Origin: Eledone cirrhosa
Taxonomy: Eukaryota
DNA length: 64,000 nt
Direction: 5' to 3'
Assembly: GCA_964016885.1 (NCBI GenBank)
Contig: OZ024741.1
Location: forward strand, 225,432,001-225,496,000
The notes below the pieces were generated by a model. It had not been told where the DNA came from. It was given only the letters and a program-made list of their open reading frames with translations, and did not search any database. Positions 20,437-63,899 of this stretch are shown one piece after another (the stretch's first letter is position 1; every line of letters begins with the position of its first letter). A program made the position numbers and the translations under genes.

Positions 20437-21238
20437 AAGAGCTCAGGTTTCCTTTTCCTTCGAGCACATAATTTACAGGGAATAATGCAAGTCTTTGACT
20501 CCGTTAATATTTGTATATTTTGCTACTTATAACAGTCTGTCCCCTCTGTTTGGTTGAGCACTTTTCTTTGAGTGGTTTCGGGCTGCCATTTCTAGCAGCT
20601 CGTCCGTCAAGGGCCGCTGGTTCACTGTCCCACGCATGCTATCATTTCTCTCTACTGCGTGGTGTAGGACGGTTATCTTAAGTATTTTAGAGTTGTCTGG
20701 AATCTATATACTAAGCACACACTGATGACCCATTGGTATTTACATTCCAGTCGGCGGTGGATTGGCAGTATCGGTAGAGGGTCGGACGCCATGCTTTCAA
20801 GCATAGTTACGTCCCTTTACGATCTGAGTTCAAATCCCGCCGAGGTTGACTTTGCCTTTCATCCTTACGGGGTCGATAAAATAAAGTACCAGTAATGCAC
20901 TGGGTAATTGCTGGCCTTGTGCCTAAAGTAGAAACAGGTATTTACATTCCAGTCAATAATATAGTGTCGAAACGAATCCTTTTGGATTTGTACGTGTGTG
21001 ATATATAGTTATAGAGGTGATTTATATTTTTAATTATTATCTGTATACCGTACCTTCCATAGTTTATAGATTCCATACACTGGTGGTTTCCCTGGTTTTT
21101 GATCGCCCACACACACTCTCTCTCTATCTAGTGTGTTATCCTTTCTACACATTGTATTTTGAAGAGCTCAGGATTCCTTTTCCTTTGAGCACATAATTTA
21201 CAGGGAATAACGCAAGTCTTTGACTCCGTTAATATTTG
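20437..21238 (+). mobile_element. Terminally redundant non-coding hammerhead element (~520-bp unit after removing the SINE)
   Basis: ~78-bp direct repeats at ~20437-20513 and 21161-21238 around an HHR (CTGATGA at 20722; GAAAC-gaatcc-tttt-ggattt-GTA at 20969-20992). Confidence 0.7.
20753..20936 (+). mobile_element. Full-length SINE family A, 18-bp TSD
   Basis: GGTATTTACATTCCAGTC duplicated at 20735-20752 and 20937-20954. Confidence 0.95.
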
Positions 21239-29274: not shown

Positions 29275-29392
<118 letters not shown>

Positions 29393-29809
29393 ATATATAT
29401 ATCAATCTAGCTGTCGTCTGTTCGACAGCGTAGACGTAATTCACTTCGCGCAGAAGCTTTGTTCCAATTTATTGCGGAAATTTTGTAAATTTAATTTTAA
29501 TTTTGATACTATTGTGTAGCTTGACGCCCCCCGTCTGAACTGTCAGGCGGTGGGTCAGCTCATCTTCGCCCCTCCCAGGGGTGAAAAACCTGTTTTTAAA
29601 AATTCTGTGCATAAAATTTCAATCGTCTGGCAGAAATATTAAACGAAGCTAACGAAAATAGTGGTGGGGGGACAGCGGTAAGAGTTGTAAGCTCGCACGC
29701 TTTAGTCCCCCCTTCCTTCCCAACTAACGTCATAGAGAAGGAAAGAAAAAATAAAATAAAAACAGACGAATGTGCGGAGAAAAATGACGAAAACACAAAT
29801 CTGGAGATT

Positions 29810-31519
29810 GTGTCCAACAACAAACAAAATTTGAAAGAATTGCATGACAATATTAATACCACAAACAAAGAAACAACGAACACAAAAATAACATTTGAAA
29901 ACAACATCATAACAGAAAGCAAAACAGACGACAAAGTCAACACCAATAGTTTTTCATTTGCACAAACAACAAAAAAATCATTAACATATATACCTGAAAA
30001 TATTTCAGATGTGGCACAAAGAATAAAAAACGCCAAACAATACATAACTCAAGGGGAAAATGGAACCTTATCGGTAAAAGATATTGAAAGTCGGACGGTC
30101 GTTTTCCGCACCATCAACAAACATCTCAAAAAAACCTCAACAACCAACCCAAGCAGAAATTAAAGCAATACTTACAGAAGTACGTAATGAAGCCACTTTC
30201 ATAAGAAGAGACAGGCTGTATGGAAGCCTAGCCATTATTATGAAGAACGAATCAGCGGCAAAAAAATATGCTTCGTCGCCGATTCGTTCGACAAATTTTA
30301 CCTTTTATCCATCTTATATGGGTAAAAGAACTCAGCGCATATGGCTGGATGCGATGATGCCAGATGTGGACTACTGCTGGCTCATAGCTGGCTTCATCGA
30401 TCCAGCGAATGACAACGTGATTTCCATTGGGAAAACCACAGGCAATGCGTTCAGTGGAACAGGTATAGAACTTGTAGTACAAATGAAGCCTGAACGCATC
30501 ACCCAAATACCCGACAGAATCCTATTAGAGGGCCACGGGTATATAGACATTAGCGTGGAGGGGAGAAGGCCATCCTATCATATCTGTGCAGGCAGAGGGC
30601 ACCTCAAGGCGGCTTGTCCACAACTCAACAAGAAGAAAACCATGCTACCAACACCAGCTCCACCACCACCACAACAGATAAACAAACAACAAAACTCAGT
30701 CCCACCCAACCCGTCCCTCAGTAAAACTACACCACCACCACAGCACAAACAGACACAACACATTAACCAAAAACAAAACACAGTCCCACCCAACCCCTCA
30801 CTCAATAAAACAACACAACCACCGCAGCCACAACACACAACACAGTCTAACATAGTGACATCCATCTCCCCCATAAAGAAAACCAACACGGAAACATTAC
30901 CAGCAAACATACCTCTTCCCTCCAACACTGAAGATAACCCAATGAATTCGGAGACGGAAACGGAGTCCTTCAGACAGATTAAAAGGAAAAAAAGAAAACA
31001 TGTGCAAAACACACAAGGCCAAACAGCCCTACCCAAATGTCAACACAATCCAACAAAACACAAAACACCCCTCCAGAAACAAACAAAACCAAACCTGCCA
31101 CTCCCCTCTTCGAAACACTCACACCATCCGAAAAAAAGACATTACACTATACTTACATCAACAGAAACAATAATAAATTAAATGAACTCATAAACAATAA
31201 CCCTTCGGTACAAACCGAAGGGGTAAACTTTGTTTCTTCAGAAAACTACCCACATTTAAAATTAATAAAGATCCCAATGAACCTCTACCAAAAACTAAAA
31301 AAGGAGTTTAAGGAGGACGTAGGACCACCCTCTGTCAAACCCATAAACCGCGTCCTCCTAAAAAGCTTTCCCCCTCCCCTTCCCCTCCCCAACACAACTC
31401 CAAACACCCCAACCCCACCACACACTGACGACCCCACACCACCACAAGACACCCCTTCACCCAACACCTCCGACCCCATGGAAGTCGTGCGACCCGAACC
31501 CCGGGAAGCAGAAAGGTAA
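29810..31519 (+). pseudogene. LINE ORF1 (gag-like, zinc knuckle), frameshifted
   Basis: ORF pieces 29810-30163, 30084-31181 (xHICAGRGHLKAACP knuckle), 31037-31519. Confidence 0.8.
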
Positions 31520-31552
31520 GTCTCTACACTCTCCTTTGGCTTTGCCGCCCAC

Positions 31553-34500
31553 ATGGATGTGTTAAGAGTAGGATGTTTGAATGCACGTGGCCTGGGCTCA
31601 ACTTGGAAGCAAGCAAATCTTCTAAATGACCTCAGGTCACGTGGTATAAATGTAATGGTTATCTGTGAGACTCGGATCAGCGTCGTGCGGCAGCTGGCCA
31701 CTACCTTCGATGACTTTGAGGTGCACGCATCTCTCTGTCAACCTGGAGGTGGGGGTGGGGTTGTCGTACTGCTGGAAAAACACCTGGGTCTCGCCGTACA
31801 GGTTGTTCACTCGGACCCGGAGGGTCGTTTGTTGGTGCTAGACGTTGGCAGTAGTGGAGGTGCGGCCTTGAGACTGGTCGCCGTCTACTCCCCTTTCGGA
31901 GCTGAACGACCCGACTTCTTCCAGCGTCTGGAGACTTTTCTGGGAACGTCGCGTTCCCTGCTTCTAGCGGGGGACTGGATTGACATCCTAGATGCACGTT
32001 GGGACTATGCAGGAACATGCCCTAATAGAGGGGGGAGGGGGTAACAACCTCAAGGGGTTACTCGACCGTTTTAACTTGGTCGATAGATATCGACTAGATT
32101 TTTCCAACTGTGCCAACCTGGACTTGGACGAACCACAGTGGTCAATCTAAATCGTACTTAGATAGATTCTTAGTTAGAAGTAAGGATAGGGACATATTAA
32201 GCTGTCCAGAAATGCTCACAGTTGGCTATACAGATCACAAATTAGTGACCTGTGTAGTCAACCTTGAGAGAACACATAGACAGGGTCCCGGTTACTGGAA
32301 ACTTAATTTGTCTTTACCGGCAAAAGAGGCTTACAGAGACCGAATTAGCAGATTAGTTAAGGAGAGGTTGACGGGTGCAATCGTCAACAACCGATGGTGG
32401 GCCTCTCTCAAAAGAGAGATTATAACAGAATCAATAAGTTATAGCAAGATGTTAGCTGCCGATAGGAATAGGAACGAGAAAGAATTAACAGGTAAATTAG
32501 AAGAGGCAATCAAGAGCGAAGATGTGGCCAGAGTGCTGGCATCGAGGACGGCCTTGAGCCAGTTTTTCGATGCAAAGCACGAAGGCTGCGTCATTCGAAG
32601 TAAAATACGAGCTCTAGGTAATGAGGGGGCCAAAGCCGTTGGCTGGGCCCGCGTGACAGAAGCTAAGAGTGGAAATCGATCCACCATCCGGTCTTTGCAA
32701 GACGAGGATGGATGGGTGATCCGGGAGCCTAAGCAGTTGTGCGAGGCCTTTCAAAGGCACTTTGCCCGATTGTTCGGGGGAGGCGGGGGTCCGGGCGGGG
32801 ACGTGGATTTCGGTCCATACTTTGACGGCCCGCCGCGTCTCTCGAGCGAAGAGGCAGAATCCTGCGAGGGACCAATCTCGGCTGATGAGATCGGGGATGC
32901 GCTGAGCCAATGCAGCAAACGCAAATCTCCAGGTCTCGATGGTATACCTTACGAACTTTATTTGGCAATGCCGGTCTTCTCCGAACTCCTCGAAGCAGTC
33001 TACTGCAATTGGCAGCAGAACGGGAGAATTCCTTGTTCTGTAGCCAAGGGCGTAGTCTCGCTGGTGAGGAAGGACGAGAACAAGGGGGATAGTATAAATA
33101 ATTTTCGGCCCATAACCCTGCTAAACACAGAGTTAAAGATTTTGGCCAAGGTGTTAGCAAAGAGGTTGGCGCTTGTCGTGGGTAACCTGGTGGGAGATGC
33201 GCAGGCATGTGCTATCCCATCCAGGTCCATTCACGACAACCTCCACCTCATGCGATACATCATAGAGAGGGTTGGCAACAAACCCGGCTTCGGTGGGGCC
33301 CTGATCAACTTGGATCAGTCTAAGGCGTTCGATAGAGTCGACCATGGTTACCTAGATGCGGTGCTAGCGGCGGCTGGGTTCGGCCCTGTTTTCAGAGGCT
33401 GGATCACTGCCTTACATAGCAACCACATCTGTTCTAGGATCAAGGTGAACGGCTACATTTCGAAGCCGTTCGAAATCATACGATCCATTCGACAGGGGTG
33501 CCCTCTCTCCTCCCTTCTGTACGTATTGACTCTCTAGCCTTTACTGAAGAAGTTGGAGTTGTTGTAGGGTATCCCCCTGGAACCAGGATTGAGCAAAGCG
33601 GTGTCGGCCTACGCCGATGACGTAACAGTAATGGTATCGACCGACTCGGAGATCGAGGCGATCGGTACCTTACTGGAGGAATACGAAAGGTTGTCAGGAG
33701 CGAAACTGAACAGGGAAAAAACCATCGGGCTGCAACTCGGAACGTGGAGAAGCAGACCGATGCCTCCCGACGGTGTCGTCGGACACTGGACGGAGGGCCC
33801 GGTGAAGTTGTTTGGGGTCTGGTTTGGACCGGACCTCCAGGTGGAAAAGAACTGGGGCGAGGTTACGAGCAAGGTGTTTGCACTGACCCAGAAATGGGCC
33901 AAGTGTAAGCTGTCCCTGAAAGGTCGGGCGGAGGTGGCGAACATTTACATAGCGTCCGTCACCTACTACCGCCTGACTGTCGTGCCTTGCCCTAAGGAAA
34001 TACTCACCACCATGGAACGCATGCTCTTTCAATTTCTTTGGAAAAAGCGCCCTCCTATGGTGAGAAGATCCATCTGCTGCCAACAACCTTCGAAAGGAGG
34101 GCTGGGGATGCCGTGGTTGATGATGCGTAGGCACGCATTAAGGCTACGGCACCTACAGGTATTCCTCACTGGTCAACCGGTGTGGGCTCCGTTCGTGAGA
34201 CGAGCCTTTCCGAGACTCGTCTCGCTCACCGAGCTGCAGTCCTGGGTCAAGCAAAGATCCGGAAAACTGGGCGACTGGCACACTGAGTGTGCCTAGGTGC
34301 TCAGTGCTCTCTGGCAAGCGGACCCGGCCATCGGTGGAGAATCCACCTCGTCATTCTATAGAGGGCTGGTGGCTAGCAGGGGCGATGACACCCTTGGAGA
34401 GTCGCTGGACATGGAAGAGGACGAACTGGCCAGCCTGTTCGGTAGGACTTTCGGCCCGGGACCAATGGACAACTTCCAGAAGTCACTGGCCTGGCAGTGC

Positions 34501-34991
34501 TACCGGGAGCTCTGCCCGTTCGAGAAAAGCTCTACAGACACGGGCGCCCGGGCAGGGATCCCTCGAAAAAGATTTGCCCTAGATGCGTGCGTCACGAAGA
34601 AACCGTTGCGCACGCATTGGTGCACTGTCCGGGCGTGGCTGATCTGTGGGGCTACGCCGAACGACTGCTGTCGCGGGTGGCGCCGATTCGATTGACCGCC
34701 GAGTCCCTGATGACAATCAAGCCGCCTCCCCTCTTCACAAAGGAAGCAAAGGCGGTTTTTCTGTGCGTAATAGCCATGTTGAAAGAGGTTGTTTGGTGGA
34801 CACGATTGAAAGGTCTGAGGTCAGGCAACTTCCTCTCTGGCCATAGTCTGGTCTACTTCTTCCGATATCACTTCGGAAGAAGGATAAGAATGGAGAGAGA
34901 GGTGCTTGGCCACAGGCAGTTTTATGAAAGGTGGGTGATAGTGGCGAGAATGACTCGTGTAAATGGGCCTTCTCTGTATACCATCCCGTAG
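31553..34991 (+). pseudogene. LINE ORF2 (APE endonuclease + reverse transcriptase + zinc motif), disrupted
   Basis: LNARGL, AGDW, SYLDRF, TDH (APE); KSPGLDG, FRPITLLN, LDQSKAFDRV, RQGCPLS, AYADD (RT); CPRC..ETVAHALVHC. Confidence 0.95.
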
Positions 34992-35301
34992 GTAAAGAAG
35001 TGAAGCAGAGGGGAGCACCTCTTCCATGTGCTCCCCGGGCAAAGGATTGCACACTTTTTCGGGGGTGTGTGCAAGCCCCATTACGTCCCCTCCCTTTTGA
35101 GGTTGTTTTTGATTATTTTCTTTTTATACCCTTTTTACTCGGTTTTATGTAAACTCCCCCTTTGTATTTGTCCCTTCTTTTTATGCCTTTATGGTAAATA
35201 AAGAAATATATCTATCTATCTATCTATCTATTTATTCATTCATTTATCTATCTAGTACTTTTCCTTTCTCTCTCAGTATATGCACAAACACACACACACA
35301 C

Positions 35302-36030
35302 TCAGACTCAGAAGCTCCCGCGTCTTGCGACGCATGAGGCAATCATAGTGTTCCATTGCGTTCGGTCAGCAGCCAGTTGCACAGCGTCCCGTCATTTGTC
35401 GCTCGCAGGTCCCGCTCAACTGTCTGGCGCCAGTTCATTTTGGGTCGCCCTCTCCGTCTGCTTCCCTGCGGGCTCCATTTAAGTACTTGGTTCGCCAGTC
35501 TCTCCGGGGGATGTCTCAAAGCGTGTCCAAACCAGCCCAGGCGTCGCTTGCAGATGGTAGAAGAGACTAGCTGCTGGTTGGTGCGGTTCCTGACTTCCTG
35601 GTTTGTTACATGGTCACTCCATTTAATCCCCAGGATCTTTCGCAGACACCTGGAATCGAATGCGTCCAACTTCTTCTCTTGATATTGTGAACAATATCAA
35701 TGTCGAAGCAGAAAGCTTAGGTCTCAATATCAGTGCCAAGAAGACCAAAAGCATGTTATCTGGGACACACTCACCACCAACCAGTGTCTTCATTGAACAG
35801 GGGGAGGTGGAGATAGTGGACAACTTCACCTACCTAGGAAGCTCCATTAACAATGAGGGCACCATGGACAGTGAACTGCAATGTAGAATGGGAAAGACTT
35901 CAGCAGCATTTAACCAGCTTGACAAGATCTGGAAGAGCAGGAAGTTCACCCTCAAAACAAAGATGAGATTCTACAACAGCAACGTGCTGTCCACACTCTT
36001 GTACGGAAGTGAAACATGGCACCTTAAGAC
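35302..36030 (-). mobile_element. RTE-like LINE 3' fragment with inverted 5' segment
   Basis: Minus 35343-35675: DAFDSRCLRKILGIKW...RRLGWFGH...RRRGRPK; plus 35676-36030: GLNISAKKTK...FTYLGS...LLYGSETW. Confidence 0.9.
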
Positions 36031-36447: not shown

Positions 36448-37753
36448 CGCCGAGGTTGACTTTGCCTTTCATCCTTACGGGGTCGATAAAATAAAGTACC
36501 AGTAATGCACTGGGTAATTGCTGGCCTTGTGCCTAAAGTAGAAACAATTATTATCATTATTATAAAGGGGCGTGGATTGGCAGTATCAGTAGAGGGTCGG
36601 ACGCCATGCTTTCCAGCATAGTTACGTCCCTTTACGATCTGAGTTCAAATCCCGCGGAGGTTGACTTTGCCTTTCATCCTTACGGGGTCGATAAAATAAA
36701 GTACCAGTAATACACTGGGTAATTGCTGGCCTTGTGCCTAAAGTAGAAACAATTATTATAAAGGGCCGTGGATTGGCAGTATCAGTAGAGGGTCGGACGC
36801 CATGCTTTCCAGCATAGAGTTACGGTCCTTTACGATCTGAGTTCAAATCCCGCCGAGGTTGACTTTGCCTTTCATCCTTACGGGGTCGATAAAATAAAGT
36901 ACCAGTAATGCACTGGGTAATTGCTGGCCTTGTGCCTAAAGTAGAAACAATTATTATCATTATTATAAAAGGGCGTGGATTGGCAGTATCAGTAGAGGGT
37001 CGGATGCCATGCTTTCCAGCATAGTTACGTCCCTTTACGATCTGAGTTCAAATCCCGCGGAGGTTGACTTTGCCTTTCATCCTTACGGGGTCGATAAAAT
37101 AAAGTACCAGTAATACACTGGGTAATTGCTGGCCTTGTGCCTAAAGTAGAAACAATTATTATAAAGGGCCGTGGATTGGCAGTATCAGTAGAGGGTCGGA
37201 CGCCATGCTTTCCAGCATAGAGTTACGGTCCTTTACGATCTGAGTTCAAATCCCGCCGAGGTTGACTTTGCCTTTCATCCTTACGGGGTCGATAAAATAA
37301 AGTACCAGTAATGCACTGGGTAATTGCTGGCCTTGTGCCTAAAGTAGAAACAATTATTATCATTATTATAAAAGGGCGTGGATTGGCAGTATCAGTAGAG
37401 GGTCGGATGCCATGCTTTCCAGCATAGTTACGTCCCTTTACGATCTGAGTTCAATTCCCGCCGAGGTTGACTTTGCCTTTCATCCTTACGGGGTCGATAA
37501 AATAAAGTACCAGTAATACACTGGTTGATTGCTGGCCTTGTGCCTAAAGTAGAAACAATTATTATAAAGGGCCGTGGATTGGCAGTATCAGTAGAGGGTC
37601 GGACGCCATGCTTTCCAGCATAGTTACGTCCCTTTACGATCTGAGTTCAATTCCCGCCGAGGTTGACTTTGCCTTTCATCCTTACGGGGTCGATAAAATA
37701 AAGTACCAGTAATACACTGGTTGATTGCTGGCCTTGTGCCTAAAGTAGAAACA
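36448..37753 (+). repeat. Head-to-tail tandem array of SINE family A (6 full + 1 partial copies)
   Basis: Units start at ~36567, 36763, 36971, 37166, 37373, 37569, joined by ATT-rich linkers. Confidence 0.95.
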
Positions 37754-37889
37754 ATTATTATTATTATTATGGTTCAGTCTTTCAAGACATGGATCACATC
37801 GCTCCTGTAAGTTTGTTCTATTTTCCCTGATATTCAACCTTTTGCATTGAAATGTTGATATTTATTTGAAGCTAAGCAAACCTATATCC

Positions 37890-39500
37890 TTGTGAGCTGG
37901 TTCGTGTAGTTCCACTTGAAGCCCTTAGGGGCCAAATCTGTGTTTGTTTTTGAAACACGGCCCTCAATTTTCTGTGAAAATTATGATGGCGGACAAAAAT
38001 GTTGCGTCCGCTAAACGGAATGGCGGGTTATTCATAGAGTGGAACAGCCAAAATTCTGAAAACAATAGCAGCAGCAACAGCGACCAAAATTTATCTGGAA
38101 AGCAGACTTTCCAGCTCTGTCAATGTTTACCACGGTGAATCCCACCACTACAACGGTAAGCGTGACCAACACAACAGATACCTTCCCCACCATTCCCACT
38201 ACTGAAACAACGGAAACGAAAAACAAAATTAAAATGAATACATAAATCATAACATAAATCATAACATGAACAACAATAACAACAAACCACCATCAGCACC
38301 GGATGCCAATAGACAAAACAATTAGGGAGAGCTTCCCCAACAACATGAGAACACCCAATGTAAAAGCCTCAAATAGGTTTTTAAAGAGGTTCCCAAAGGA
38401 ACTCCAGCAACGAGTAATGGACGTCGAACCACTTTGAAATATCTACCCATCCCTTAGTCGGCCTGGAATGGGAGACGGGGTGGCAGTGCTGTTTAGGAAA
38501 GACCTGAGTCTCAGGTACGGACGATCTTCCTGGACGCGGACGGTAAGCTCGTGGTCCTAGATGTGAACAATAGTTAAGGTAGTACTTTTAGATTAGTGGC
38601 TGTCTGGGGAGGACGGCCAGATTTCTTTAGGCGTCTGGAGGCCTGTCTAGGAACGCTTCGCCCTTTGGCGTTAGTGGGGGACTGGAACGGCATCTTGGAC
38701 ACACGCTGGAACTGTGTGGGAATAGCCGATAGAAGAGCGGGTGCAAAAGCCTCAAAAACCTGCTCAGCCACTTTCAACTCTCTGACAGGTACCAACTAGA
38801 TTTCCCTAATGCACCAGTGTGGACCTGGACAAAAAGCTTAAGGACATCTAGATCGTACTTAGGTTAGTGGATAACGATGGTATGTCCACAATTGCATACT
38901 GTGGCCTATTCAAACCACAAGTTTGTGATCTGCATGGTCGACCTAGATAGAACATATAGACAGGGACCCGGTTACTGGAAGCTTAACGCGTCGTTCCCAG
39001 TGATCTGAATAATAAATTAGTTAAGCGGCAGTTTAGGGGAGCCATCGTCAATAACAGGTGGTGGGGCGTTATCAAGAGAGCGATTAGAGTAGAATCCATA
39101 GTATTCAGTAAAGAAGTAGCGATAGGAAAAAATAAAACGGAGGGGGAGTTAGTAACTAAATTAGCGATTAAGAGTGGCATTGCATTTTGAAACACGAAGG
39201 TTACATTGTCATAGCTAAGGTGCGTGCTCTAAGAAACGAGGGAACTAAAGCTATTCGATGGGCCCGCGTGGTGGAGGCGCAACGTGGTACCAAAACCTCA
39301 ATTCGGTCTTTGACGGAGCGAGACGGACGCACGCTAAACGATTCCAGGCAGATGTGTAAGGCCCTTCACCAGCAATTTGCTCGGGTGGCCACTCTCACCA
39401 AGAAATGGGCCAAGAGGTAGTTATCCATGAGAGGTCGGGCTGAGGTGCCGAAAGTGTACATCGGATCCGCCATCTATTAACCCCTGATCTTCGTGCAGCT
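37890..39500 (+). mobile_element. Decayed, internally deleted L1/Tx1-like LINE
   Basis: RPDFFRRLEACLGT..VGDWNGILD, GPGYWKLN, HEGYIVIAKVRALRNEG; joins the pre-RT region directly to post-RT LTKKWAKR. Confidence 0.85.
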
Positions 39501-50122: not shown

Positions 50123-52535
50123 TTCTTCTGGTTTTACCAATAGAGAGAGAGTCGGTTTCTAACCTAAACACAAGACTCTCTCATTGGAATTTACACAACA
50201 TCAACTAGGTAGATTATGTATGTATGCATGCATGTGTAGATATGGATGTTACTGTATGTGTGGATGTGTATGTTTTGAGTTGTATATGTGCATGTGTATA
50301 TGCTTTGCATCTGTACATGTGTATATGCAGTTAATGGATGTAACATTTTTGGAATGTTTTTCATATTTTTACTGTTCCATTAATGGATTGTACTTGTAAT
50401 TTCCTAACTAGTTGTGTTCTTTCTGTTCCTGTGAAGCCTAGCTTCTCAAGATTTGTATTGAGGCAGTTACTAACATACCCCAGTGCCCCAATAATCACAA
50501 GCATAAATCTGATGGTGTAATCAGGGTGGAGTATCTGCACATTTCTCATCAGTTCTGCATAAATATTCTCCTTTTCACTAATCTTTGATATTATATTGGC
50601 ATCTGCTGGGCAGCTAATTTCCACTACTGTGCATGCTTTCTTCTCCCTGTCCAATATCATAATGCCTGCATTTTATTGGGGTTTTTACTGGAACATTCCA
50701 CCAGTACTCTTTCATATTATGTACATGGATGTCTTCCACATTGCTGTAGCTTTTAATGTGTTTATTATCGGAGCTATCTTTTTTACGAACTGCATTGTAC
50801 AGTGTTTTGGCCAGTACATCATGCCTCATAGGTAGATAGTACCGCGATGACATCTTTGGACAGCTGCTGATGACATGGGTAATATCCTCGATGTTAGTTC
50901 TGCAGAGTCTTCACTTGTTATCACATCTAGGTGTTTTGCCTGCATCCCTATCTCTTTTGTGAATCAGGTATTTCGTGTTAATCTCCTGTTCCTGGATTGC
51001 AAAAGCGTATCCTTCAAAGTGGGAACCAATATAGCGGTTGTTGGTCCAAGATAGACTACTTTCCTTATCTATATTACTCTCACTCTGGACTTCCTGGCAA
51101 CATATCCATGCATGATTTTTTGCTGATAGGCATGCAGTTTTTCATCTTATTCGTTTCATCTTATCCGTTTCATGCAGATAGACTTGCTCGAGAAACGGGC
51201 TCCTACGCTTCGAGGTTCGTAGATGTTGTCAGAGAGATATGATGCGACATTCAAATGCTGTCTGGACTGATGTTAGGCCTCTGCCTCCCTGCTTAAGTTT
51301 TCAAGTAAAGGCGGTCTATGTCACTGTTGATGTGGAGGTCTCCGTTGTTGTTCAGTATTTTTCGATTCCGACATCAACTGCTCGGATTTCGTCTATCGTC
51401 CAATTGAGTATTCCAAACGTTGGTGTTAGGACAGGCACAGTAAACACATTATGAGCCACTGTTTTGTTTTACGCAGAGAGTTCCGATGACCAGATCTTTC
51501 TTAATCGGGTGTAGTATTCCCTGGTTACGCGTTCTTTATTACAGATACCATTATTGGATATGTTCTAATCTATCCCCAGGTATCATTAACAGTCCTCATC
51601 AGATATCGGTGAAACAGTTAGGCTATTGATGACAATGTTGCTAGATTGGGTTGTTGTTTTTCCCCGCTTTACAGTCACGTATGAGCCTTTATCTTGGCCA
51701 AACTCCATTCCTATATCCTTCGAGAAAGTTGTAACCAGGTCAAGATTTTTCTTCATCCCATCCATGTTCTTGGCATAGAGTTTCAGATCATCTACAAAGA
51801 AATTATAGGTTAGGTTCGTATTTCTGTCCTCCTGTGAGCCAATGATGTATCGCTCACAGAATCCCTTGAGCAGAAAGGACAAGGGGTTTAATGACATTAT
51901 GAGTAATATCACAGAGAGACTGTCCCCCTGAAATATACCCCTGCAATATTTTATTTTATTTTATCAGTGAAAATAGAGTCCTCCCTTTCTGTCTTTAACC
52001 TTAGGATAGGAGCCCAAGAAGAAGACAGCATCTCTATGGCTCTGACAATAATGTCTGGGACTTTAGCAAGTTGGAGGGCCTCTATCATCCAAGAGTGGGG
52101 AACAGAATCGAAAGCTTTCTTGTAGTCCAGCCAGACTGTAATCGTATTCCTCCTAAGTTGTCGAAGCTCCGACATCGCAGTTTTGTTGATTAGGAGTTGT
52201 TCAGCACATCCCCAAACCCTTTTCTTTCCAGCTGCTTGTTCATCTGTGATGATGTTATTATTTTCACAGTGATCTTGGAGGAATAGGTTCAGGCAGGCTG
52301 TATACATCTTATACATCAGTTTCTGGCATGCAATGGGTCGGTAGTTTTTTGCCAAGTGGGTGTCTTTGTTCTTGGGGACCAGTAATGTTTGTGCTAATGT
52401 CAACCATCCTGGTATAAGTGTATCTCCCTTAAGAACTTTTTGGTAGAGTTCAGTAAGATACCTCCGATAGAATATCAGTTTTTTGTACCAGTAGCTCAGT
52501 GCACAGTCTTTCCCCACTTTAAAAATATTCGTCAC
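50123..52535 (-). mobile_element. R4/Dong-like RLE LINE (copy B: RT, CCHC/RHD, RLE)
   Basis: NYRPIAC, WLDYKKAFDSVPHSW, FFVDDLKLY, RHDVLAK, ILDREKKACTVVEISCP..EKENIY..IIGALG. Confidence 0.9.
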
Positions 52536-52556
52536 GCACAGGCATTTATTAATAGT

Positions 52557-52612
<56 letters not shown>

Positions 52613-55600
52613 GAATGCCATGGTTGACGGAGGCTCGGCTCTGTAAGGTATTGTAAATTTTGACCGCTATAACAATTGTAAATTGTTTAAAATTTTAACC
52701 AAATTGTAGACAAAAACACCCTCATCCTCGTGAGAGGGGTCTTTCTGCCCGTTATTTGGCCCTTCGGGGTTAAATAACCGCTTATTGGGGTTTTGTGCCC
52801 AATATTTATTTTAAACCAAAAAGAAACATGGCTACGAAAAAGAATTTTCACAAGTCACTCCCACTCATTCCGTCTTCTTCTTCCTCGATCGTCACTACAG
52901 CAGAGAGAAGATTGTCTCTCTCCCTCCCTTCTCTAAATGTGTCTCTCTCCCTCCCTTATCTTTCGCAAGCGACGCCAGTAAAGAAAAATAGTTTACAAAA
53001 TCACGTGAAAAACATGGAACATTTCTCAACGACGACGACAACGACGAAAAAGGTGTGCGGTAAATACGAAAACCCATTTCATTCGTCTGACGTCATGAAT
53101 AATAGCATTAGCAGCCGTAATAACAGCACCAGCAGCAACAGTGACAAGGAAAACAACAGTAGCAGCCGCAACAGCATCAGCAGCAGCATAAACAACAACA
53201 GCATTAGCAGCAACAGCAACAACAACAGCAGCAGCAGCAGCAACAGCAACAACAACCACAGCAACAGCGGCGGCGGCAGTCGTAGTACCAGCAGAAACAA
53301 CAAAAGTAACAGCAGCTCTGACGACAACAACAACAACAACAAGAAAGAAAACCAATCTCGTTTGCAGGTATCGCAAAGAACCTGGAAACCATCCGTATAA
53401 CAAATGAGGAATTACAGGAAGCAAAGAAGATGGTGACGAAAACCGGACACCGAGCAATCTGCAAGGCAGCCGAAACCTTTTTCGAAACCCAACAGCACTG
53501 TACAGTCACGTACCGTACAGTAAGCACAACATCCTGTAGGGTTGAAAGAGTCACAGAGGCTCAAATACAAAAAGCCTTAGGGTCTGTGTGACAGCGTAAA
53601 ACGCATATCACCCGAGGCAAGAAATATGCCACCGTGGACGTGCTTTTTGCCACAACCCAGGAGACAAAGGCTCAATCCTTAGTGACCCTAAGGAGCGAGG
53701 AAATGGTGTTGGTGCCCTCCTACTGCGGATAAAATATTGTGAGGGTCAAACTGACCCACGCCCCCCCCCCCCCCCCCCCCCCCCGGGATGGCCCCTTTTG
53801 GCTGGCTGCGTCTGTCCTCGTCGGAATCGAGGACAAAACAACTGTACTGCAAGTACAGAAAAAAGTACGAGAAGATTGGGTCGGCACCTCCATTGAGATG
53901 TTAATCCAAACCAACCAGGAGTGCATCAAAGCTATCCCGGATGTGATAGACTTCGATAACGGCACTCAACTGTCCATAAGTGTTGAGGGCAAACGCCTGA
54001 AATGCTTTCGCTGTAGATCGAAGACTCACCTCAGGGCCTTCTGCAATGAGAAGACCCTGAGAAAGGAGAAAACCCCCTCCTTCCGAAACCGGCTCCACTG
54101 CTACCAACAACAGGACAGGCGGCAACCAGGAAGGATAGGTCCGTGGCACCTATGCCCAGGCCACGGAAATCAAGAACAGCAGCAGCAGTGGAAGTATTAA
54201 CAACAACAACAGCAATACCAACTAAAGCTGCAACAGAGACTCCACTGCAAACACCACCAACAACAACAAGTGAAAGTGTGGAGCTGGTACCCATCCCCGA
54301 CCTCACACAATCGGACATGGAGTGTGAGGTGAGGAGGGATGGCAAAAGGTCGCAAGAAGGCACAAACGCAGAAGCAGCGCATCGTCGCCTTCGAAAAGGG
54401 AGGAAAGAAACGAAAACAGGGTAAAGGCTACTGCAAAGAGACTTACAGCAGCAACACCACCCACACCATCACCACCCACACTAGCACCACCATCACCACC
54501 GAAGGCAACCTCACCGCCAACAATAACAACACCTTCAACACCACCACCACAAGCACCAACATCGCAAACACAACAAAACACACACACCCAGCAACAACGA
54601 CAAGAAAATAGCAGAACCACACCCCACCCCCAGAAAAACAAATGCACAGCAATAAATACACACAACAAGAAACTAATGACTTACATAATTGAACACACAG
54701 ACATTTCACAGCACGTCTACATAATACCAGCACCAATCAAAACACCAACGAACATAAGACTGGTACGAATAGCACAGAAACAATAGACAAACATTAAAAC
54801 GAAATTCCCCAACGCAGTTGGTGATTTCAGAGACCTAGGAGGGACTCTCAACCGGAGAGTATATTCGGATATACTCACAGAAGAGCCGACGACCAGCCGA
54901 ATGGACGATTCAACGGTCCCTTCACCAGACGATCAAGTGAAAAGGGATGGAGAAACCATCCTTCCTCTACGAGAAGTAAGGTAAGTGGTCTTTCCCATCT
55001 TTTCCACTCCATTTCAACATGACCTCACTCAGAATAGGCAGCATAAATGCGCGTGGCTTGGGGTCGTCATGGAAGCAGGGCCACCTGATCAACGACCCCA
55101 GATCACTAAACATAGATGTAGTGGCCATCAGCGAGAACAGAATCTCCGAAGCACGGGCCTTCGCACCGATCTCCGGCGGCTACGATGTGTACGCATCTCC
55201 CTGCCGTCCCGGATCGGGGAGTGGAGGTGCTGTGCTTTTTCGGAGAGGTTTGGATCTCGCCATACGGTCTATCTTCCTGGACCCAGAAGGTAAATTGGTG
55301 GTGCTGGACGTGACCAGCGGAGAAGGGCAAGCTTTCAGGCTAGTGGCCGTCTATGCCCCCACAGGAGCAGGGCGGCCTGATTTCTTCCGGCGTCTGGAGA
55401 CCTTTCTAGGAACGTCCCGCCCTTTAGTGTTAGTGGGCGACTGGAACGGGATCTTAGATGCACGCTGGGACTGTGTGGGATTAGCGGATAGGGGAGGAGG
55501 GTGCAAGAGCCTCACCAACCTGCTCAGGCGTTTTGAACTGTCTGACAGGTACCGATTGGATTTCCCGAATGTGCCAATGTGGACTTGGACAAATCGCATA

Positions 55601-58088
55601 GGGTCATCCAGATCATATCTAGATAGAGTATTTTGTAGGGAAATAGATAGGTCTAGCATAGGCTGTCCACAATTCAAGATAGTCAGCTACACGGACCACA
55701 AATTCGTGATCTGTATGCTTGACTTAGATAGGCTTCATAGACGAGGACCCGGCTACTGGAAGCTAAACGCGTCTTTACCAGCGCGCAAGGCCTACAGAGA
55801 CCGGATTAGCGAACTAGTTAAGCGAGCGTTGACGGGGGCCATCGTCAACAAGTGGTGGTTTGCTCTGAAAAGAGCGATTAGAATAGAGTCCATTAGGTTT
55901 AGTAAGGCTTTAGCTATAGAGAAAAATAGAGCAGAGGGAATATTAGTTAGAAAATTAGACGAGGCGCTTAGCAAAGGCTTCGCGACCGATGTACTTGCGG
56001 CGAAATTGGCCCTTGAACAATTCTTCAATGCAAAGCAAAAAAGGCTACGTTGTCAGAGCTAGGGTGCGTGCTCTCAGAAACGAGGGGACGAAAGCCATTC
56101 AATGGGCCCGAGTGGCGGAGCCGCGTCGTGGCAACAAAGCCACGATCCGGTCTTTGGTGGACCACGACGGGCGCATGCTACTCGATCCCGGGCAAATGTG
56201 TGAAGCTTTTCAGCGACACTTCGCTCAAATGTTCGGGAGCAGCGGCGGGCCGGATCGAGGGATGGACTTTAGTATCTACCTCAACAGACGGCCGCGGCTC
56301 TCAGCCACTGAGGCGGAGTGTTGCGAAAAGCCGATAACAGCAGCTGTAGTACGGGAGGCAATGACTGGCTTCACAAGGGGTAAATCGCCTGATTTGGATG
56401 GTCTGCCCTATGAACTTTACGTGCAGATGCCAGACTTGTTCGGAGGCCTCTGGGCGGATGTCTACTGCAACTGGCAACAGAACGGGAGAATTCCCAGCTC
56501 TGTGAGCAGAGGAGCGGTGGCGCTGCTGAGAAAGGATCCGAACAAGGGGGATAACAGATAATTTGAGGCACATAACTCTGCTTAAAACAGAGTTCAAGAT
56601 TTTGGCCAAGGTGCTACTCGGCACCTGGAGAGGCAGGTCCATGCCGTCCAACAACGTCGTCGGGCGCTGGACGGACGGTCCGGTTAAATTGCTAGGGGTC
56701 TGGTTCGGTCCGGACCTCCAGACGGACAAAAACTGGGACGAGGTGACGAGCAGGGTGGCTTCTCTCACCCAGAAATGGGCGGAAAGGAAGCTATCCCTGA
56801 AAGGTCGAGCGGAGGTGGCTAACGCGTACTTTGCGTCCGTCATCTGCTACCGCCTGACCGTCGTACCTTGTCCTAAGCCCCGCCTGACTGCGCTGGAGCG
56901 TTTGCTCTTTCGCTTTTTGTGGAAGGGACGCGCTCCGATGGTCAGGCGGTCCATCTGCTGTCAACACCCGCTTCGTGGAGGGCTGGGAATGCCGTGACTG
57001 ATGATGCGCAGACACGCGCTCAGGCTACGACATCTCCACCTCGTGATCAGGTGTGGTCGCCGTTTGCTAGACACGTCTTTCCCCAGCTCGTCTCCTGGAC
57101 GGAGCTGCAGTCCTGGGTCAAGCGAAGACCGAGAGGGAGCGCTTGGAGACTGGAATGTCTTCAGGCGCTCACAGCCCTCGACCAATCGGGCAATGTGATC
57201 GGTGGAAACTCCACCTTGGCGTTCTATAGAGGATTAGTGGAGTGGAATAGCTACGACGTACTTGGAGAAACTCTAGGCGTCGACGAAAATCAACTAGCCA
57301 ATCTCTTCGGAAGGACTTTCGGGCCGGGGCCTATGGACAACTTCCAGAAATCCCTGGCCTGGCAGTGCTACCGGGGAGCTTTGCCAGTTTGGGATAAACT
57401 CTACAGGCATGGAGGTGCCGTCAGCCGGGCATGTCCGAGATGCGCGCAGGGCGACGAAACCGTCCTGCACGCACTCGTCCAGTGTCCGAGCATTGCTGAC
57501 TTGTGGGTTTATATCGAACACCTGCTGTCGGTTGTAGGACGGATCCGGCTATCAGCTGAGTCCATCGTGAGGATTGCCCCGCCCTCTCCCTTTAGCCGGG
57601 AAGGGCAGGCAGTTTTTATCTGTCTGTGGCCATGGCGAAAGAGATAGTATGGTGGACACGTTTGAAAGGGCTGAAGACGAGCACTTACCTCTTCGGTGAT
57701 GCCCTGATTAACTTTTTCAAATTTCATTTGAAAAGGAAAATCAGGGTAGAGAGGGAAGTGCTCTCTTCCCAGCATTTTGTTGAAAGATGGGTGAGAGAGG
57801 CAAGAATGGCCCGAGTGAATGGGCCTACTCTGAGTATGTGTCTGTAAATTAAAGGTGGAAGAGGGCACTTGCCCTGGTGGTCAGGGTCACTGAGGCTTTT
57901 TAATGGGCTTTCTCTACGAATGTCCCTCGGAAGTCTCCCCCTATTAGGGAATTTTTTCATTGTTCTATTATTACATCCTCTGTTTCTTGTTTTTTACACG
58001 CAGAAATGCCCATTTGTACTGCCCTGTATTGTCCTGTACTGTCCTTAATGTCTACTTTGTATAGACCCTTGTGGTTAATAAAGAAAGC
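52613..58088 (+). mobile_element. L1/Tx1-like LINE (second family) inserted in (TTA)n, RT core deleted
   Basis: ORF1 remnants with knuckle CFRCRSKTHLRAFC; ORF2 APE 55019-56062; post-RT and zinc regions; AATAAA at 58077; ATT repeats on both flanks. Confidence 0.92.
55019..57847 (+). pseudogene. LINE ORF2 (APE region open, RT catalytic core missing)
   Basis: INARGL, VYAP, VGDWN, SYLDR, TDH; KILAKVL fused directly to LGTWR; CPRCAQGDETVLHALVQC. Confidence 0.9.
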
Positions 58089-58230
58089 ATTATTATTGTT
58101 GTTTTCGTTATTATTATTGTTGTTATTATTATTGTTATTAATATATATATATATTGTTTTTTCCTCGTGCAATGGCCATACTCGATAACGAGGGGGTAGC
58201 CATCATCAAGTATGTATATATGTATGTATG

Positions 58231-60404
58231 TTCTTCTGGTTTTATAATTTCAAAAATGTTTCCCAATAGAGAGAGAGTCGGTTTCTAACATAGACACAAG
58301 ACTCTCTCATTGGAATTTACACAACATCAACTAGGCAGATTATACATGCCTGCACTTGTTATCACATCTAGTTGTTTTGCCTGCATACCTATTTCCTTTG
58401 TGAATCAGGTATTTCGTGTTAATCTCCTGTTCTTGGATTGCAAAAGCGTATGCTTCAAAGTGAGAGCCAATATAGCGGGTGTTGATCCAAGATAGACTAC
58501 TTTCCTGATCTATATTACTCTCACTCTGGAGCTTCCTGGCAACATATCCATGCATGATTTTTTGCTGATAGGCATGCAGTTTTTCATCCATGGATTCACT
58601 GCGATACTGCTGAGCGACATCCCTGGGTGTGAATCTTTGATTATCACACAGGGAATATCTCTCGAGGAATTCCTTCCCAACTCTCATGATCTTATCTGTT
58701 TCATGCAGATAGATTTGCTCGAGAGACGGGCTCCTACGCTTCGAGGTTTGTAGATGTTGTCGGAAGGGTATGATGCGACATTCACATGCTGTCTATGTCA
58801 CTGTTGATGTGGAAGTTTCCGGTGTTGTTTAGTATTTTTCGAGTTCCAACATCAACTGCTCGGATTTCGTCTATCGTCCAATTGAGTATTCCAAACGTTG
58901 GTGTTAGGACAGGCACAGCAAACACATTGAGAGCCAGTGTTTTGTTTTGCGCAGAGAGTTCCGATGACCAAATTTTCTTAATCGGGTGTAATATTCCCTG
59001 GTTACGCGTTCCTTATTACAGATACCATTATAGGATATGTTCTCATCTATCCCCAGATATCGGTGAAACAGACCATTGATGACAATATTGCTAGATTGGG
59101 TTGTTGTTTTTCCTCGCTTTACAGTCATGTATGAGCCTTTATCTTGGCCAAACTCTATTCCTATATCCTTTGAGAACGTTGTAACCAGGTCAAGATTTTT
59201 CTTCGTCCCATCCATATTCTTGGCATAGAGTTTCAGATCGTCCACAAAGAAATTATGGGTTAGGTTCGTATTTCTGTCCTCCTGTGGGCCAATGATGTAT
59301 CCCTCACATTTCTTGAGCAGAAAGGACAAGGCGTTTAATGACAAGATGAATAATATCACAGAGAGACTGTCTCCCTGAAATATACCCCTGCTATATTTGA
59401 TTTTATCAGTGAAAATATAGTCCTCCCTCTCTGTCTTTAACACTTCATCAATAACACGTAATATTTCATTATTTATTTTTTTTTTTTTATTAAACATTGT
59501 CGTTTAATACGTTCAGCAAGAGAGATATTTATACATGAATTAATTTCTCTCAGGAAGATTTCGTTGGGGGAAATTTTAAATTGTTTATACTTTTGATTAT
59601 TATCATTATCGATAGTATTTTCCACAGCAGTCGAGGTAGACTGGGATGGTACATGTGGTGTCAAATTTTTTCGATTATTATTATTTCTTCGATTGTTATT
59701 ATTATCGATAGTGTTTCCCCAGCATTCAAGGTAGACTTAGATGGTACAGGTGGGGGTCAAGTTTCTTACAGGTATAGTTGTTTCAAGGCACTGTTCGACC
59801 TGGCTGCTAGGAAGTCTAGTAGCAAGGCGACCTGTAGCACGTGTTGTTGATCCCATGTTTGTTGTGGGGGACTTACAATTAATACTATTTATCTTATTTT
59901 TACGTTCAGCAAACGTCGCTTGTTGGCGTAATTGTTTCTCTGTGAAATAATTTAGCTCTGGGAGCATTTCGTCCCAGTGTAGCTTCATTCTGTTCATATA
60001 GCCAATGGAGGGATTGTTTTTTGCCATTTTATAACAATTAAATAAATCATCATTAAGTTCGCAACTCCAAGAGAAATGCGATTCATAATTTCAGTTTTTT
60101 CTGTAGCTACAACCGAATAAAGTTTGTTTACCTTTCTCGTTGTTTGTCTTCGATACTTCCTTAATTTTGTTGTTGATGTTGTGTTCAGCCATGCTGTTTG
60201 TAGCAAATCCTTGTAAAATGGATTATGTATTTAATCGGATATCTCTACGACTTCGAATAAAAGATGTCTTCAGAGGATATAGTTAGAAGAATAACCAGTT
60301 ATTCAACATGACTGTAGTTGTGGCATTACTGTCGGGGATAGTATTCATCTTAAATTTAATAAATAGTCTCCCACGCCAAATTATGCGACTGATCGCGTTG
60401 ACTG
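58231..60404 (-). mobile_element. R4/Dong-like LINE (copy C), both ends apparently present with large internal deletions
   Basis: N-terminal GYMNRMKLHWDEM..TEKQLRQQ; GIFQGDSLS, FFVDDLKLY; same 3' end as copy B; TATG repeats on both flanks. Confidence 0.85.
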
Positions 60405-62477: not shown

Positions 62478-63899
62478 GTGAACCAAATATCTATGTGTAT
62501 GGTAAACGGCTTGGGGTGGTTGATCAGTTTGTCTACCTGGGAAAGACTGTCAATCGATACAGCAACCTTAATAGTGAAATCTCACTTAGGATTAGGAAAG
62601 CAAGTGATGCTTTCAGAAAGCTAGAAAGGCGACTCTGGGGTCGGCGAGACATATGCAAGAAGACAAAGGTAAAGGTGTACAAGGCATGTGTGCTCTCTTC
62701 TCTTCTTTATGCCTACGAGACCTGAGTCACATATCGACACCACCTTAAGCAATTGGAGCGTTTCCATCAGATGTGTCTCAGACGCATCCATGGCGTTCAC
62801 TGGAGGGACCACATCTGTGATCTCGAGATTTTGGAAAGCTCTCTGTGTGACAGTATAGAAGCTCTTGTGCTTAAGCATCGACTCTGTTGGGGTAGTCACC
62901 TTGCCAGGATTAAGGATTCTAGAATACCAAAACAACTCTTTTATGGAGAGTTAGTTAAAGGAAAACGACCGCCACATTAGCCAAAAAAGAGGTATAAGGA
63001 TTCCTTGAAAGTCTCTCTGAAAGACGCTAACATCTCTGCTGATACATGGGAAAATATTGCTGCTGATCGTAATAAATGGAGAAAGACTGTATATGAGGGA
63101 AAAGTTGCCTTTGAGGCATCTCGAATCGTATACGAGAAAGTAAAGCGGGATGTGAGGAAGAGCATTGCTGTTGCACTTCCAGACGGCGAGGGTCCTCCTA
63201 TGGTGCTGACATGCAGCGTCTGTGCGAGACTCTGCCTAAGCAAAGCTGGACCCGAAAGTCATCTTTGCAGTCATAAAGTAGGACCAGTGGTTGACTACCA
63301 GGCTGCTGTTGGAGGTGCTACTCATCATGCTTGCCAAGCATGTGGTAGAGAATGTAATTCAGCAGGAGGGCTCAAATGACATGCAAAAGTACACGAACTC
63401 CAACCACAGCCGGCTATTCCCAGTGAATGTTTTGGTTGCCGAGTCTGTGCAAGACATTTCAGATAATTGGCTGGGCTAAAAAGCCACATTCGATCGCAGC
63501 GCTGTTAATTGCTATCGTGTGTGTATAGATATGTTTATGTGTGTGCGTGTATGTGTATATATATATATATGTATATTATTATTGGGGGATTAGCAGTATC
63601 GCTAGAGGGTCGGATGCCATGCTTTGACGCATAGAGTTACTGCCCTTGCCATTCTGAGATCAAACCCCGCCAAGGTTAACTTTGCCTTTCATCCTTACGG
63701 GGTCGATAAAATAAAGTACCAGTAATACACTGGGTAGTTGCTGGCCTTGTGCCAAAAGTAGAAACAATTATTATTGTTGTTATCGTTATTATTAGTGTTG
63801 TTATTATTATTATTATTGTTATTAATATATATATATATATTTATATTTTTCTTTCTCGTGCAATGGCCACACTCGATAACGAGGGGGTAGCCATCATCA
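62478..63899 (+). mobile_element. 5'-truncated RTE-like LINE with C-terminal C2H2-like fingers and SINE-interrupted 3' UTR
   Basis: FVYLG, RIRKASDAF, VYKACVLSSLLYAYET, RIPKQLFYGEL, CSVCARLCLSKAGPESH; ends in GCCATCATCAT; TATG repeats on both flanks. Confidence 0.88.
63584..63768 (+). mobile_element. SINE family A copy
   Basis: Matches 20753-20936; inserted in an ATT repeat. Confidence 0.9.

What the first reader, a model, noticed from the sequence alone, without database searches (positions are those of the whole stretch)
54976..55036. Same splice geometry in a second, divergent Tx1-like family (52-nt spacer, different frame, same fusion codon)
Seen: ORF1 (frame read manually from 54790: NIKTKFPNAVG...PLREVR*) ends GTA AGG TAA with AG|GTAAGT at 54981. 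A polypyrimidine-rich tract follows and the first AG is a canonical CTCAG at 55028-32, again inside the AGA Arg codon 5 of ORF2. The spacer differs in sequence and length from copy 1 (52 vs 51 nt), so ORF1 and ORF2 are in different frames here, yet splicing still restores frame. This argues against stop read-through and favours splicing. An alternative is a U1-binding site that suppresses premature polyadenylation.
Basis: partly seen in the sequence, partly recalled or inferred. Interest (0 to 1): 0.85.

Follow-up and report, generated by a model that had tools for sequence, protein, structure and literature searches.

The report
Splice signal between retrotransposon genes
Two distantly related jumping-gene copies, probably from an octopus-like animal, both carry a perfect splice signal exactly where their first gene ends; the signal looks kept on purpose, but whether it really cuts out a tiny intron and fuses the two genes remains untested.

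Summary
In this decayed Tx1/L1-like LINE, AG|GTAAGT overlaps the ORF1 stop (GT at 54981), a U/C-rich AG-free tract follows, and the first AG (55031-32) lies in ORF2 Arg5. Removing 52 nt fuses the frames; copy 1 has the same layout (51 nt).

The donor is not chance: it occurs once per ~5-kb element, at the stop (about 9e-4 per copy), although ORF1 tails are 23% identical and the spacers do not align.

The frame argument is weak. The stop forces the donor phase, Arg/Lys is the usual endonuclease residue there, and a null model restores the frame in 59-70% of trials and hits Arg5 in 26-35%. ORF2 keeps its own AUG inside the supposed intron, and genomic copies keep the spacer. Splicing is untested.

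Best reading (0.4): a conserved U1-binding site on a mostly unspliced bicistronic RNA. Bold reading (0.27): a retained, alternatively spliced intron making an ORF1-ORF2 fusion, which my searches did not find in print for LINEs.

The parts
52558..52612 (.). (TAT)n microsatellite on the 5' side of copy 2
   Evidence: sequence
53420..54984 (+). ORF1 of copy 2 (decayed; 5' start uncertain): RNA-binding region, CCHC knuckle, low-complexity linker, small C-terminal domain, stop TAA 54982-84
   Evidence: tblastn to copy 1 ORF1 28% identity, E 5e-15; the copy 1 homologue resembles CCHC and ZCCHC3-type RNA-binding clusters, 0.92; frame supported
54003..54044 (+). CCHC zinc knuckle of ORF1
   Evidence: C-x2-C-x4-H-x4-C read from the translation
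54979..54986 (+). AG|GTAAGT, 5' splice-site (U1-binding) consensus overlapping the ORF1 stop
   Evidence: only occurrence in the element
54987..55018 (+). U/C-rich, AG-free spacer; one-base T insertions occur in family members
   Evidence: insertions behind 54999, 55005 and 55011
55019..55021 (+). ORF2 start codon, inside the supposed intron
   Evidence: same position as the Met of homologues
55028..55033 (+). CTCAG|A, first AG after the donor, in ORF2 Arg5 (candidate acceptor)
   Evidence: null model
55019..57847 (+). ORF2 of copy 2: APE-type endonuclease, RT with about 575 nt of the core deleted near 56616, zf-RVT; frameshifts and stops
   Evidence: Pfam PF03372 E 5.8e-13 and PF13966 E 3.2e-08; deletion
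58077..58082 (+). AATAAA at the 3' end, followed by (TAT)n-like flank
31514..31567 (+). the same layout in copy 1: donor GT at 31516, stop 31517-19, ATG 31553, first AG 31565-66 (51 nt)
29440..35205 (+). copy 1, a divergent family (endonuclease 57% identical to copy 2) within (TATC)n

Best explanation
The locus is a dead copy of a Tx1/L1-like LINE of an octopod-type genome. Its lineage keeps, under selection, a perfect U1-binding 5' splice site written into the last codon and stop of ORF1, followed at once by a U/C-rich tract. The working RNA is the unspliced bicistronic transcript: it is what gets copied into the genome, ORF1p ends at the TAA, and ORF2p starts at its own AUG 33-35 nt later, probably by termination-reinitiation. 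The site recruits U1 snRNP (the tract helping it, or blocking the very near acceptor) to keep the full-length RNA from being cut and polyadenylated early or otherwise mis-processed; splicing to the Arg5 AG is at most a minor side product. Shown: the motif, its uniqueness, the kept AUG, the retained spacer in genomic copies. Inferred: U1 binding, its purpose, reinitiation.
For: Donor unique and at the stop in both families, about 9e-4 each, while ORF1 tails are 23% identical (no significant BLASTP match) and spacers align at 41%, with 489 of 500 shuffles doing as well. The tract lies directly behind the donor; branch point and 3' site are weak. The AUG is kept in both copies and is seen in 2 of the 18 loose ends shown; among 20 close endonuclease relatives a Met lies 7-9 residues before the conserved Asn in 13 (gene callers bias this). 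Contigs carry the spacer unspliced: X6 record 10 (depth 77.7) bridges the donor, X6 record 11 bridges the acceptor. LINE proteins prefer their own mRNA (listing of PMC3852968) and spliced L1 RNAs do insert, as about 2% of full-length L1s (PMC5860796, passages), so an ORF2-making spliced RNA should have displaced the intron. A5' splice site at a gag/pol boundary that protects full-length RNA is shown for Arabidopsis EVD (PMC5580714, section 8). Reinitiation is the accepted route for L1 and SART1 ORF2 (PMC2881922, passages).
Against: Neither copy has AATAAA or ATTAAA in ORF2 downstream of the donor; the nearest signals lie about 190-340 nt upstream in A-rich ORF1, where they are expected by composition, so the target of protection is unclear. 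Donor plus pyrimidine tract plus no AG plus a near-constant 51-53 nt to an in-frame AG is also what a minimal intron looks like, and both further subfamily loose ends that show the codon have AG in it (2 of 2). One review calls reinitiation improbable after a long ORF1 (PMC3894237, section 5). Only two independent donors were read directly.
Confidence: 0.4

Rival explanations
1. A real, regulated 51-53-nt intron. Unspliced RNA makes ORF1p and is the template for new copies; a spliced fraction removes the ORF1 stop and the ORF2 AUG and makes an ORF1-ORF2 fusion that supplies the endonuclease and reverse transcriptase, so splicing sets the protein ratio. It needs the spliced RNA to be a poor template, or intronless copies to be rare dead ends.
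For: Perfect donor, pyrimidine tract, AG-free stretch (0.029 by element-wide AG density), canonical CAG in copy 2, in-frame join in both copies. One-base insertions in the spacer are tolerated in a high-depth variant (behind 55011: 77.7 of 127.4 in X6, 16005.8 of 245287.7 in X1). Two more subfamily loose ends have AG in the Arg codon. P0071 reads Q-G-E 12 codons before its ORF2 Met, which is compatible with a donor whose stop is TGA (inference from protein only). Introns under 30 nt exist in some animals (PMC13644364, passages) and a 56-nt human model intron is listed (PMC8363638, listing). Penelope-like elements keep introns through retrotransposition (PMC8557442, passages).
Against: Frame restoration and the Arg5 position are likely by chance. 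The AUG inside the intron is conserved. Among 20 close relatives picked by a W-K-Q type motif (2 probably misassigned, 2 from one cluster) the position is Arg in 7, Lys in 5, Cys 2, Gly 2, Ile 1, Asn 1, absent 2; Lys cannot give an AG in this phase, though many are decayed copies. One X6 loose-end consensus (3 contigs, agreement 0.8) shows a pyrimidine tract and CAG about 5 nt before the AUG, which would break the frame if that subfamily has the same donor (uncertain). Cis preference predicts intron loss, yet the copies seen keep the spacer.
Confidence: 0.27
2. A translation signal. The octamer is a strong stop context and the unstructured, purine-poor spacer lets the 40S subunit scan to the ORF2 AUG; the match to the U1 consensus is incidental.
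For: Kept AUG, short spacer of free length, no stable fold (z -0.89 and 0.12), no Rfam family at gathering score. ORF2 translation depends on ORF1 translation in L1 and SART1.
Against: Stop context explains one or two bases, not an 8-base match to the U1 consensus in families with 23% ORF1 tail identity. The human L1 inter-ORF sequence is described as dispensable.
Confidence: 0.18
3. The donor is used with a distant acceptor near the 3' end, giving a short ORF1-only mRNA, as Ty1/copia elements do for Gag.
For: Copy 2 has acceptor-like sites at 58003 and 58064, just before the poly(A) signal; precedent in PMC5580714 (abstract and section 8).
Against: Copy 1 has no such site in its 3' UTR under the same filter. 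The unspliced RNA already makes ORF1p, and this splice would remove its stop.
Confidence: 0.07
4. An inherited or convergent coincidence without present function.
For: Only two donors were read; the window holds 2 more AGGTAAGT sites with no such role; conserved L1 splice sites can be by-products of other constraints (PMC5860796, passages).
Against: About 9e-4 per copy at a fixed position, with the flanking sequence fully diverged.
Confidence: 0.08

Closest known systems
Tx1 clade (L1-Tx1) non-LTR retrotransposons, such as Kibi and Koshi; 13 recently active L1-Tx1 families (421 insertions) in Octopus vulgaris (PMC13282606, passages)
   Same: Two ORFs, CCHC knuckle in ORF1, APE endonuclease, RT and zf-RVT in ORF2, insertion in microsatellites (PMC4494074, passages); nearest solved RT is human L1 ORF2p, E 4e-25, against 1e-12 for R2.
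   Different: No splice donor at the ORF1 stop was found described for them in my searches.
Arabidopsis Ty1/copia EVD intron (PMC5580714; abstract and section 8 read)
   Same: A conserved U1 site at the border between structural and catalytic genes; unspliced RNA is the genomic RNA; U1 binding also blocks early termination.
   Different: LTR element with packaging; there splicing makes the short Gag product and the unspliced RNA the fusion, the reverse of this layout; here no splice is shown and no poly(A) signal follows the donor.
Human L1 SpIREs (PMC5860796; abstract and passages)
   Same: Splice sites inside a LINE RNA.
   Different: Those lie in the 5' UTR and ORF1, lower retrotransposition and give dead ends; the human inter-ORF spacer is 63 nt with two stops.
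Penelope-like elements with retained introns (PMC8557442; passages)
   Same: A retroelement that keeps an intron through copying.
   Different: Other class, introns mostly in the 5' UTR, unusual copying mechanism.
Foamy-virus pol mRNA; HIV-1 major splice donor (both recalled, no call)
   Same: Spliced RNA for the polymerase; a donor that silences a poly(A) site upstream of it.
   Different: Retroviruses select the unspliced RNA by packaging; LINEs have no such step.

Membership tests
L1/Tx1-type LINE | APE-type endonuclease at the N-terminus of ORF2, then RT and C-terminal zinc motif | tested here: met
   Pfam PF03372, PF00078 (copy 1), PF13966; RT core deleted in copy 2
L1/Tx1-type LINE | RT closer to L1 than to other clades | tested here: met
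   copy 1 RT against PDB: L1 ORF2p E 4e-25, R2 9.6e-13; only these families have solved structures
Tx1 clade | RT phylogeny placing it with Tx1 rather than L1 | not testable with these tools
   no named Tx1 reference proteins were available; no tree built
Tx1 clade | ORF1 with RNA-binding domain and CCHC knuckle | tested here: met
   knuckle in translation; Atlas hits 0.92 to CCHC clusters, a lead only; no Pfam hit
Tx1 clade | Target preference, often microsatellites | tested here: inconclusive
   2 of 2 full copies lie in microsatellites on both sides; too few insertions, and the window is rich in such repeats
U2-type spliceosomal intron | GT..AG ends with 5' consensus | tested here: met
U2-type spliceosomal intron | Branch point and pyrimidine tract next to the 3' AG | tested here: inconclusive
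   tract lies next to the donor; no CTRAY; copy 1 ends in AAG
U2-type spliceosomal intron | Removal seen in RNA, or precise loss in retrocopies | tested here: inconclusive
   only contigs of runs of unknown kind could be laid; such contigs show presence, not absence
U2-type spliceosomal intron | Length within the host's intron range | not testable with these tools
   no host genome held; no octopus figure found
U1 site that suppresses early polyadenylation | A cryptic poly(A) signal nearby whose use rises without U1 | tested here: inconclusive
   none downstream in ORF2; signals about 190-340 nt upstream; use not testable

The most novel reading that the evidence does not exclude
Octopod Tx1-like LINEs express ORF2 through a retained, alternatively spliced mini-intron that deletes the ORF1 stop and makes an ORF1-ORF2 fusion, while only the unspliced RNA is copied. 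This would be a LINE that breaks cis preference and answers the ORF2-translation problem by splicing.
Probability: 0.27. Interest if true: 0.8.

Novelty: new variant of a known kind. Interest (0 to 1): 0.45.

Why it matters
How LINEs make ORF2 protein from a bicistronic RNA is called an open question in the review read here (PMC3894237, section 5), and that text never mentions splicing (0 occurrences). A conserved U1 site on the ORF1 stop would be a new control point for LINE RNA in either reading. If the intron is real, it would add a route to ORF2p and show how a LINE can keep an intron despite copying through RNA. O. vulgaris has 13 recently active L1-Tx1 families and public RNA data, so the test is cheap.

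Tried and rejected
No RNA holder listed among 24 runs; this says nothing on expression. Four runs were laid as contigs on 54650-55400 (X1 3708 contigs, X6 40, X7 8, X14 1): no joint from 54980 to 55033 among the 15 shown of 27 joints (12 weaker ones hidden), and no loose end behind 54980 among the 18 shown of 292; contigs drop rare forms, so this is no proof of absence. X6 could be RNA or low-depth DNA; its A>G share equals that of X1 (15 of 153, 8 of 82), which does not decide it. None of the 40 shown substitutions falls in 54972-55087, but 129 were hidden. No host genome. Related-locus scans found nothing: metagenomes, viral contigs (28, 29, 72), prokaryote genomes (33, 73). Search for longer proteins holding the ORF1 tail: 0 of 1171 candidates (weak). 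Endonuclease searches gave no protein with the ORF1 tail joined at Arg5; of the four with long N-terminal extensions among the 150 listed, P0071 keeps its Met and pyrimidine-coded residues, and P0095, P0118 and P0163 show no recognisable match to this ORF1 by eye. The O. vulgaris transcriptome file of PMC9115989 was unreadable (84 characters; 4 of 8 files not searched); the bivalve LINE library of PMC10294476 is cut to short stretches; the O. vulgaris library is on Zenodo, out of reach; PMC4494074 supplements unavailable. These unseen files bear directly on donor conservation and splicing. Stop read-through rejected for copy 2 (frames differ). A structured recoding element rejected. Copy 3 lacks the junction and its deletion does not follow these sites. 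Earlier scan notes: nothing.

Full report
What is there. The finding lies in a decayed LINE at about 52610-58090 on the + strand. ORF2 carries an APE-type endonuclease and a zf-RVT domain, and has lost about 575 nt of the RT core relative to copy 1. ORF1 has a CCHC knuckle and is 28% identical to the ORF1 of copy 1 over 172 residues. Copy 1 (about 29440-35205) belongs to another family, 57% identical in the endonuclease; its RT is nearest to human L1 ORF2p among solved structures. Both copies sit in microsatellites, as many Tx1 elements do (PMC4494074, passages). The only named homologue is from Argonauta hians (51%), so an octopod host is likely (inference). Placement in the Tx1 clade proper rests on resemblance; no tree with named Tx1 references could be made.

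The observation. The ORF1 frame it read by hand is supported, because the in-frame stop at 54784-86 is not shared by family contigs in three runs.

What is beyond chance. AGGTAAGT occurs once in each element, and there on the ORF1 stop; given a TAA, the other five bases have an iid chance of about 9e-4 per copy. The ORF1 tails before it are 23% identical with no significant BLASTP match. The spacers after it align no better than shuffles (41%; 489 of 500 shuffles as good), yet both are 76% pyrimidine and free of AG. In copy 2 this is the only such window in 4.4 kb. A high-depth X6 contig with 32 differences over 397 nt has 26 of them listed upstream of the donor and none listed in it; that it keeps the donor is an inference, since 129 rows were hidden. 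The motif and the tract therefore look selected.

What is not beyond chance. If the TAA of GTAAGT is the stop, the donor phase is fixed. The acceptor must then be an AG at codon positions 1-2, which AGR Arg supplies. Arg or Lys is the usual residue at this place of the endonuclease's first strand (30 of 43 proteins with the motif; among 67 more distant ones Arg 21, Asn 18, Lys 15), and 79 of 149 Arg codons of these ORF2s are AGR. With shuffled spacers and codons drawn by usage, the first AG restores the frame in 59% and 70% of 20,000 trials and lies in Arg5 in 35% and 26%. The length difference excludes read-through but says nothing between splicing and reinitiation.

Family data. Contigs of four runs were laid on the junction. 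Unspliced contigs bridge the donor and the acceptor. One-base insertions occur in the spacer, making 53 nt in a high-depth variant. Two loose ends from other subfamilies again have AG in the Arg codon, one with a pyrimidine tract and its own ATG. One loose-end consensus shows a pyrimidine tract and CAG about 5 nt before the ATG, which would break the frame; it rests on 3 contigs at 0.8 agreement. Among 20 close endonuclease relatives the position is Arg in 7 and Lys in 5 (many decayed, 2 probably misassigned, 2 from one cluster). P0071, a three-member Logan cluster, runs from ORF1-like sequence into ORF2 while keeping pyrimidine-coded residues and the Met, and has lost the catalytic Glu, so it is most likely a decayed unspliced copy. 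Its Q-G-E twelve codons before the Met would fit a donor with a TGA stop, but its DNA could not be read. The search for spliced RNA is set out under tried and rejected; it neither shows nor excludes splicing.

Mechanism. Two facts weigh against splicing as the normal route to ORF2p. The AUG inside the supposed intron is kept at the standard position. And LINE proteins prefer the RNA that made them (listing of PMC3852968), so spliced RNAs get inserted (PMC5860796, abstract and passages); an ORF2-making spliced RNA should replace the intron-bearing form, yet the copies seen keep the spacer. The tract also lies next to the donor and not next to the AG, with no clear branch point; U-rich tracts behind a donor are known to help U1 binding (recalled). 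I therefore rank first a U1-binding site acting on the unspliced RNA (0.4), as shown for the EVD donor (PMC5580714, section 8), with ORF2 made by reinitiation (PMC2881922, passages). Its weak point is that no poly(A) signal follows the donor within ORF2; an upstream target, as in HIV-1 (recalled), is possible. A true regulated intron is second (0.27), a translation signal third (0.18), a distant acceptor (0.07) and coincidence (0.08) last.

Novelty. Ten literature searches (open-access library only) gave no report of an intron or conserved donor at a LINE ORF1 stop; two reviews of non-LTR expression have no occurrence of 'splic'. Repbase reports and subscription journals were not searched. Papers seen: PMC5580714 abstract and section 8; PMC3894237 passages and section 5; PMC5860796 abstract and passages; PMC13282606, PMC8557442, PMC2881922, PMC4494074, PMC13644364, PMC7140322, PMC9115989 and PMC10294476 passages; supplement lists of PMC13282606, PMC7140322 and PMC8967140; parts of the supplements of PMC9115989 and PMC10294476; PMC3852968 and PMC8363638 listings only.

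Verdict. The element is ordinary; the conserved donor and tract at the ORF1 stop are real and unexplained; the fusion splice is plausible and untested. Interest 0.45, new variant of a known kind; 0.8 if the intron is confirmed.

Noticed in passing
window 38000-39500 +: A third, more decayed copy of the same LINE group; a deletion runs from the ORF1 tail into about endonuclease residue 55 and removes donor, spacer and acceptor; a second deletion removes the RT.
   Followed up: partly
window 56616: Copy 2 lacks about 575 nt of the RT core; the junction does not follow splice-site rules.
   Followed up: partly
window 54655-54870 and 31145-31400: A small ORF1 C-terminal domain of about 80 residues, similar by eye in all three copies and P0071, with no Pfam hit and no usable Atlas hit.
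   Followed up: partly
P0071 cluster (Logan, 3 members): ORF1-like sequence in frame with the ORF2 start; Q-G-E twelve codons before the Met would fit a donor with a TGA stop. DNA not available.
   Followed up: partly
X6 loose end before window 55015: A related subfamily seems to have a branch-point-like motif, pyrimidine tract and CAG just before the ORF2 AUG; it could be an acceptor for an ORF2-only mRNA, or break the fusion frame.
   Followed up: no
window 57981-58066: Two acceptor-like sites in the 3' UTR of copy 2, not matched in copy 1.
   Followed up: partly
window 29290-29400, 35205-35250, 52558-52612, 58090-58140: Copy 1 sits in (TATC)n and copy 2 in (TAT)n, suggesting different microsatellite targets for the two families.
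   Followed up: no
window 35627-36020 +, 58340-59503 -, 51800-52560 -: Fragments of other LINEs (DUF6451 and RVT_1 hits for the first two; the third by eye); copy 2 lies between the two minus-strand pieces.
   Followed up: no
window 36448-37770: Head-to-tail array of a roughly 200-nt dispersed repeat also found at 1-129, 4042-4256, 20753-20948 and 63584-63772, probably a SINE.
   Followed up: no
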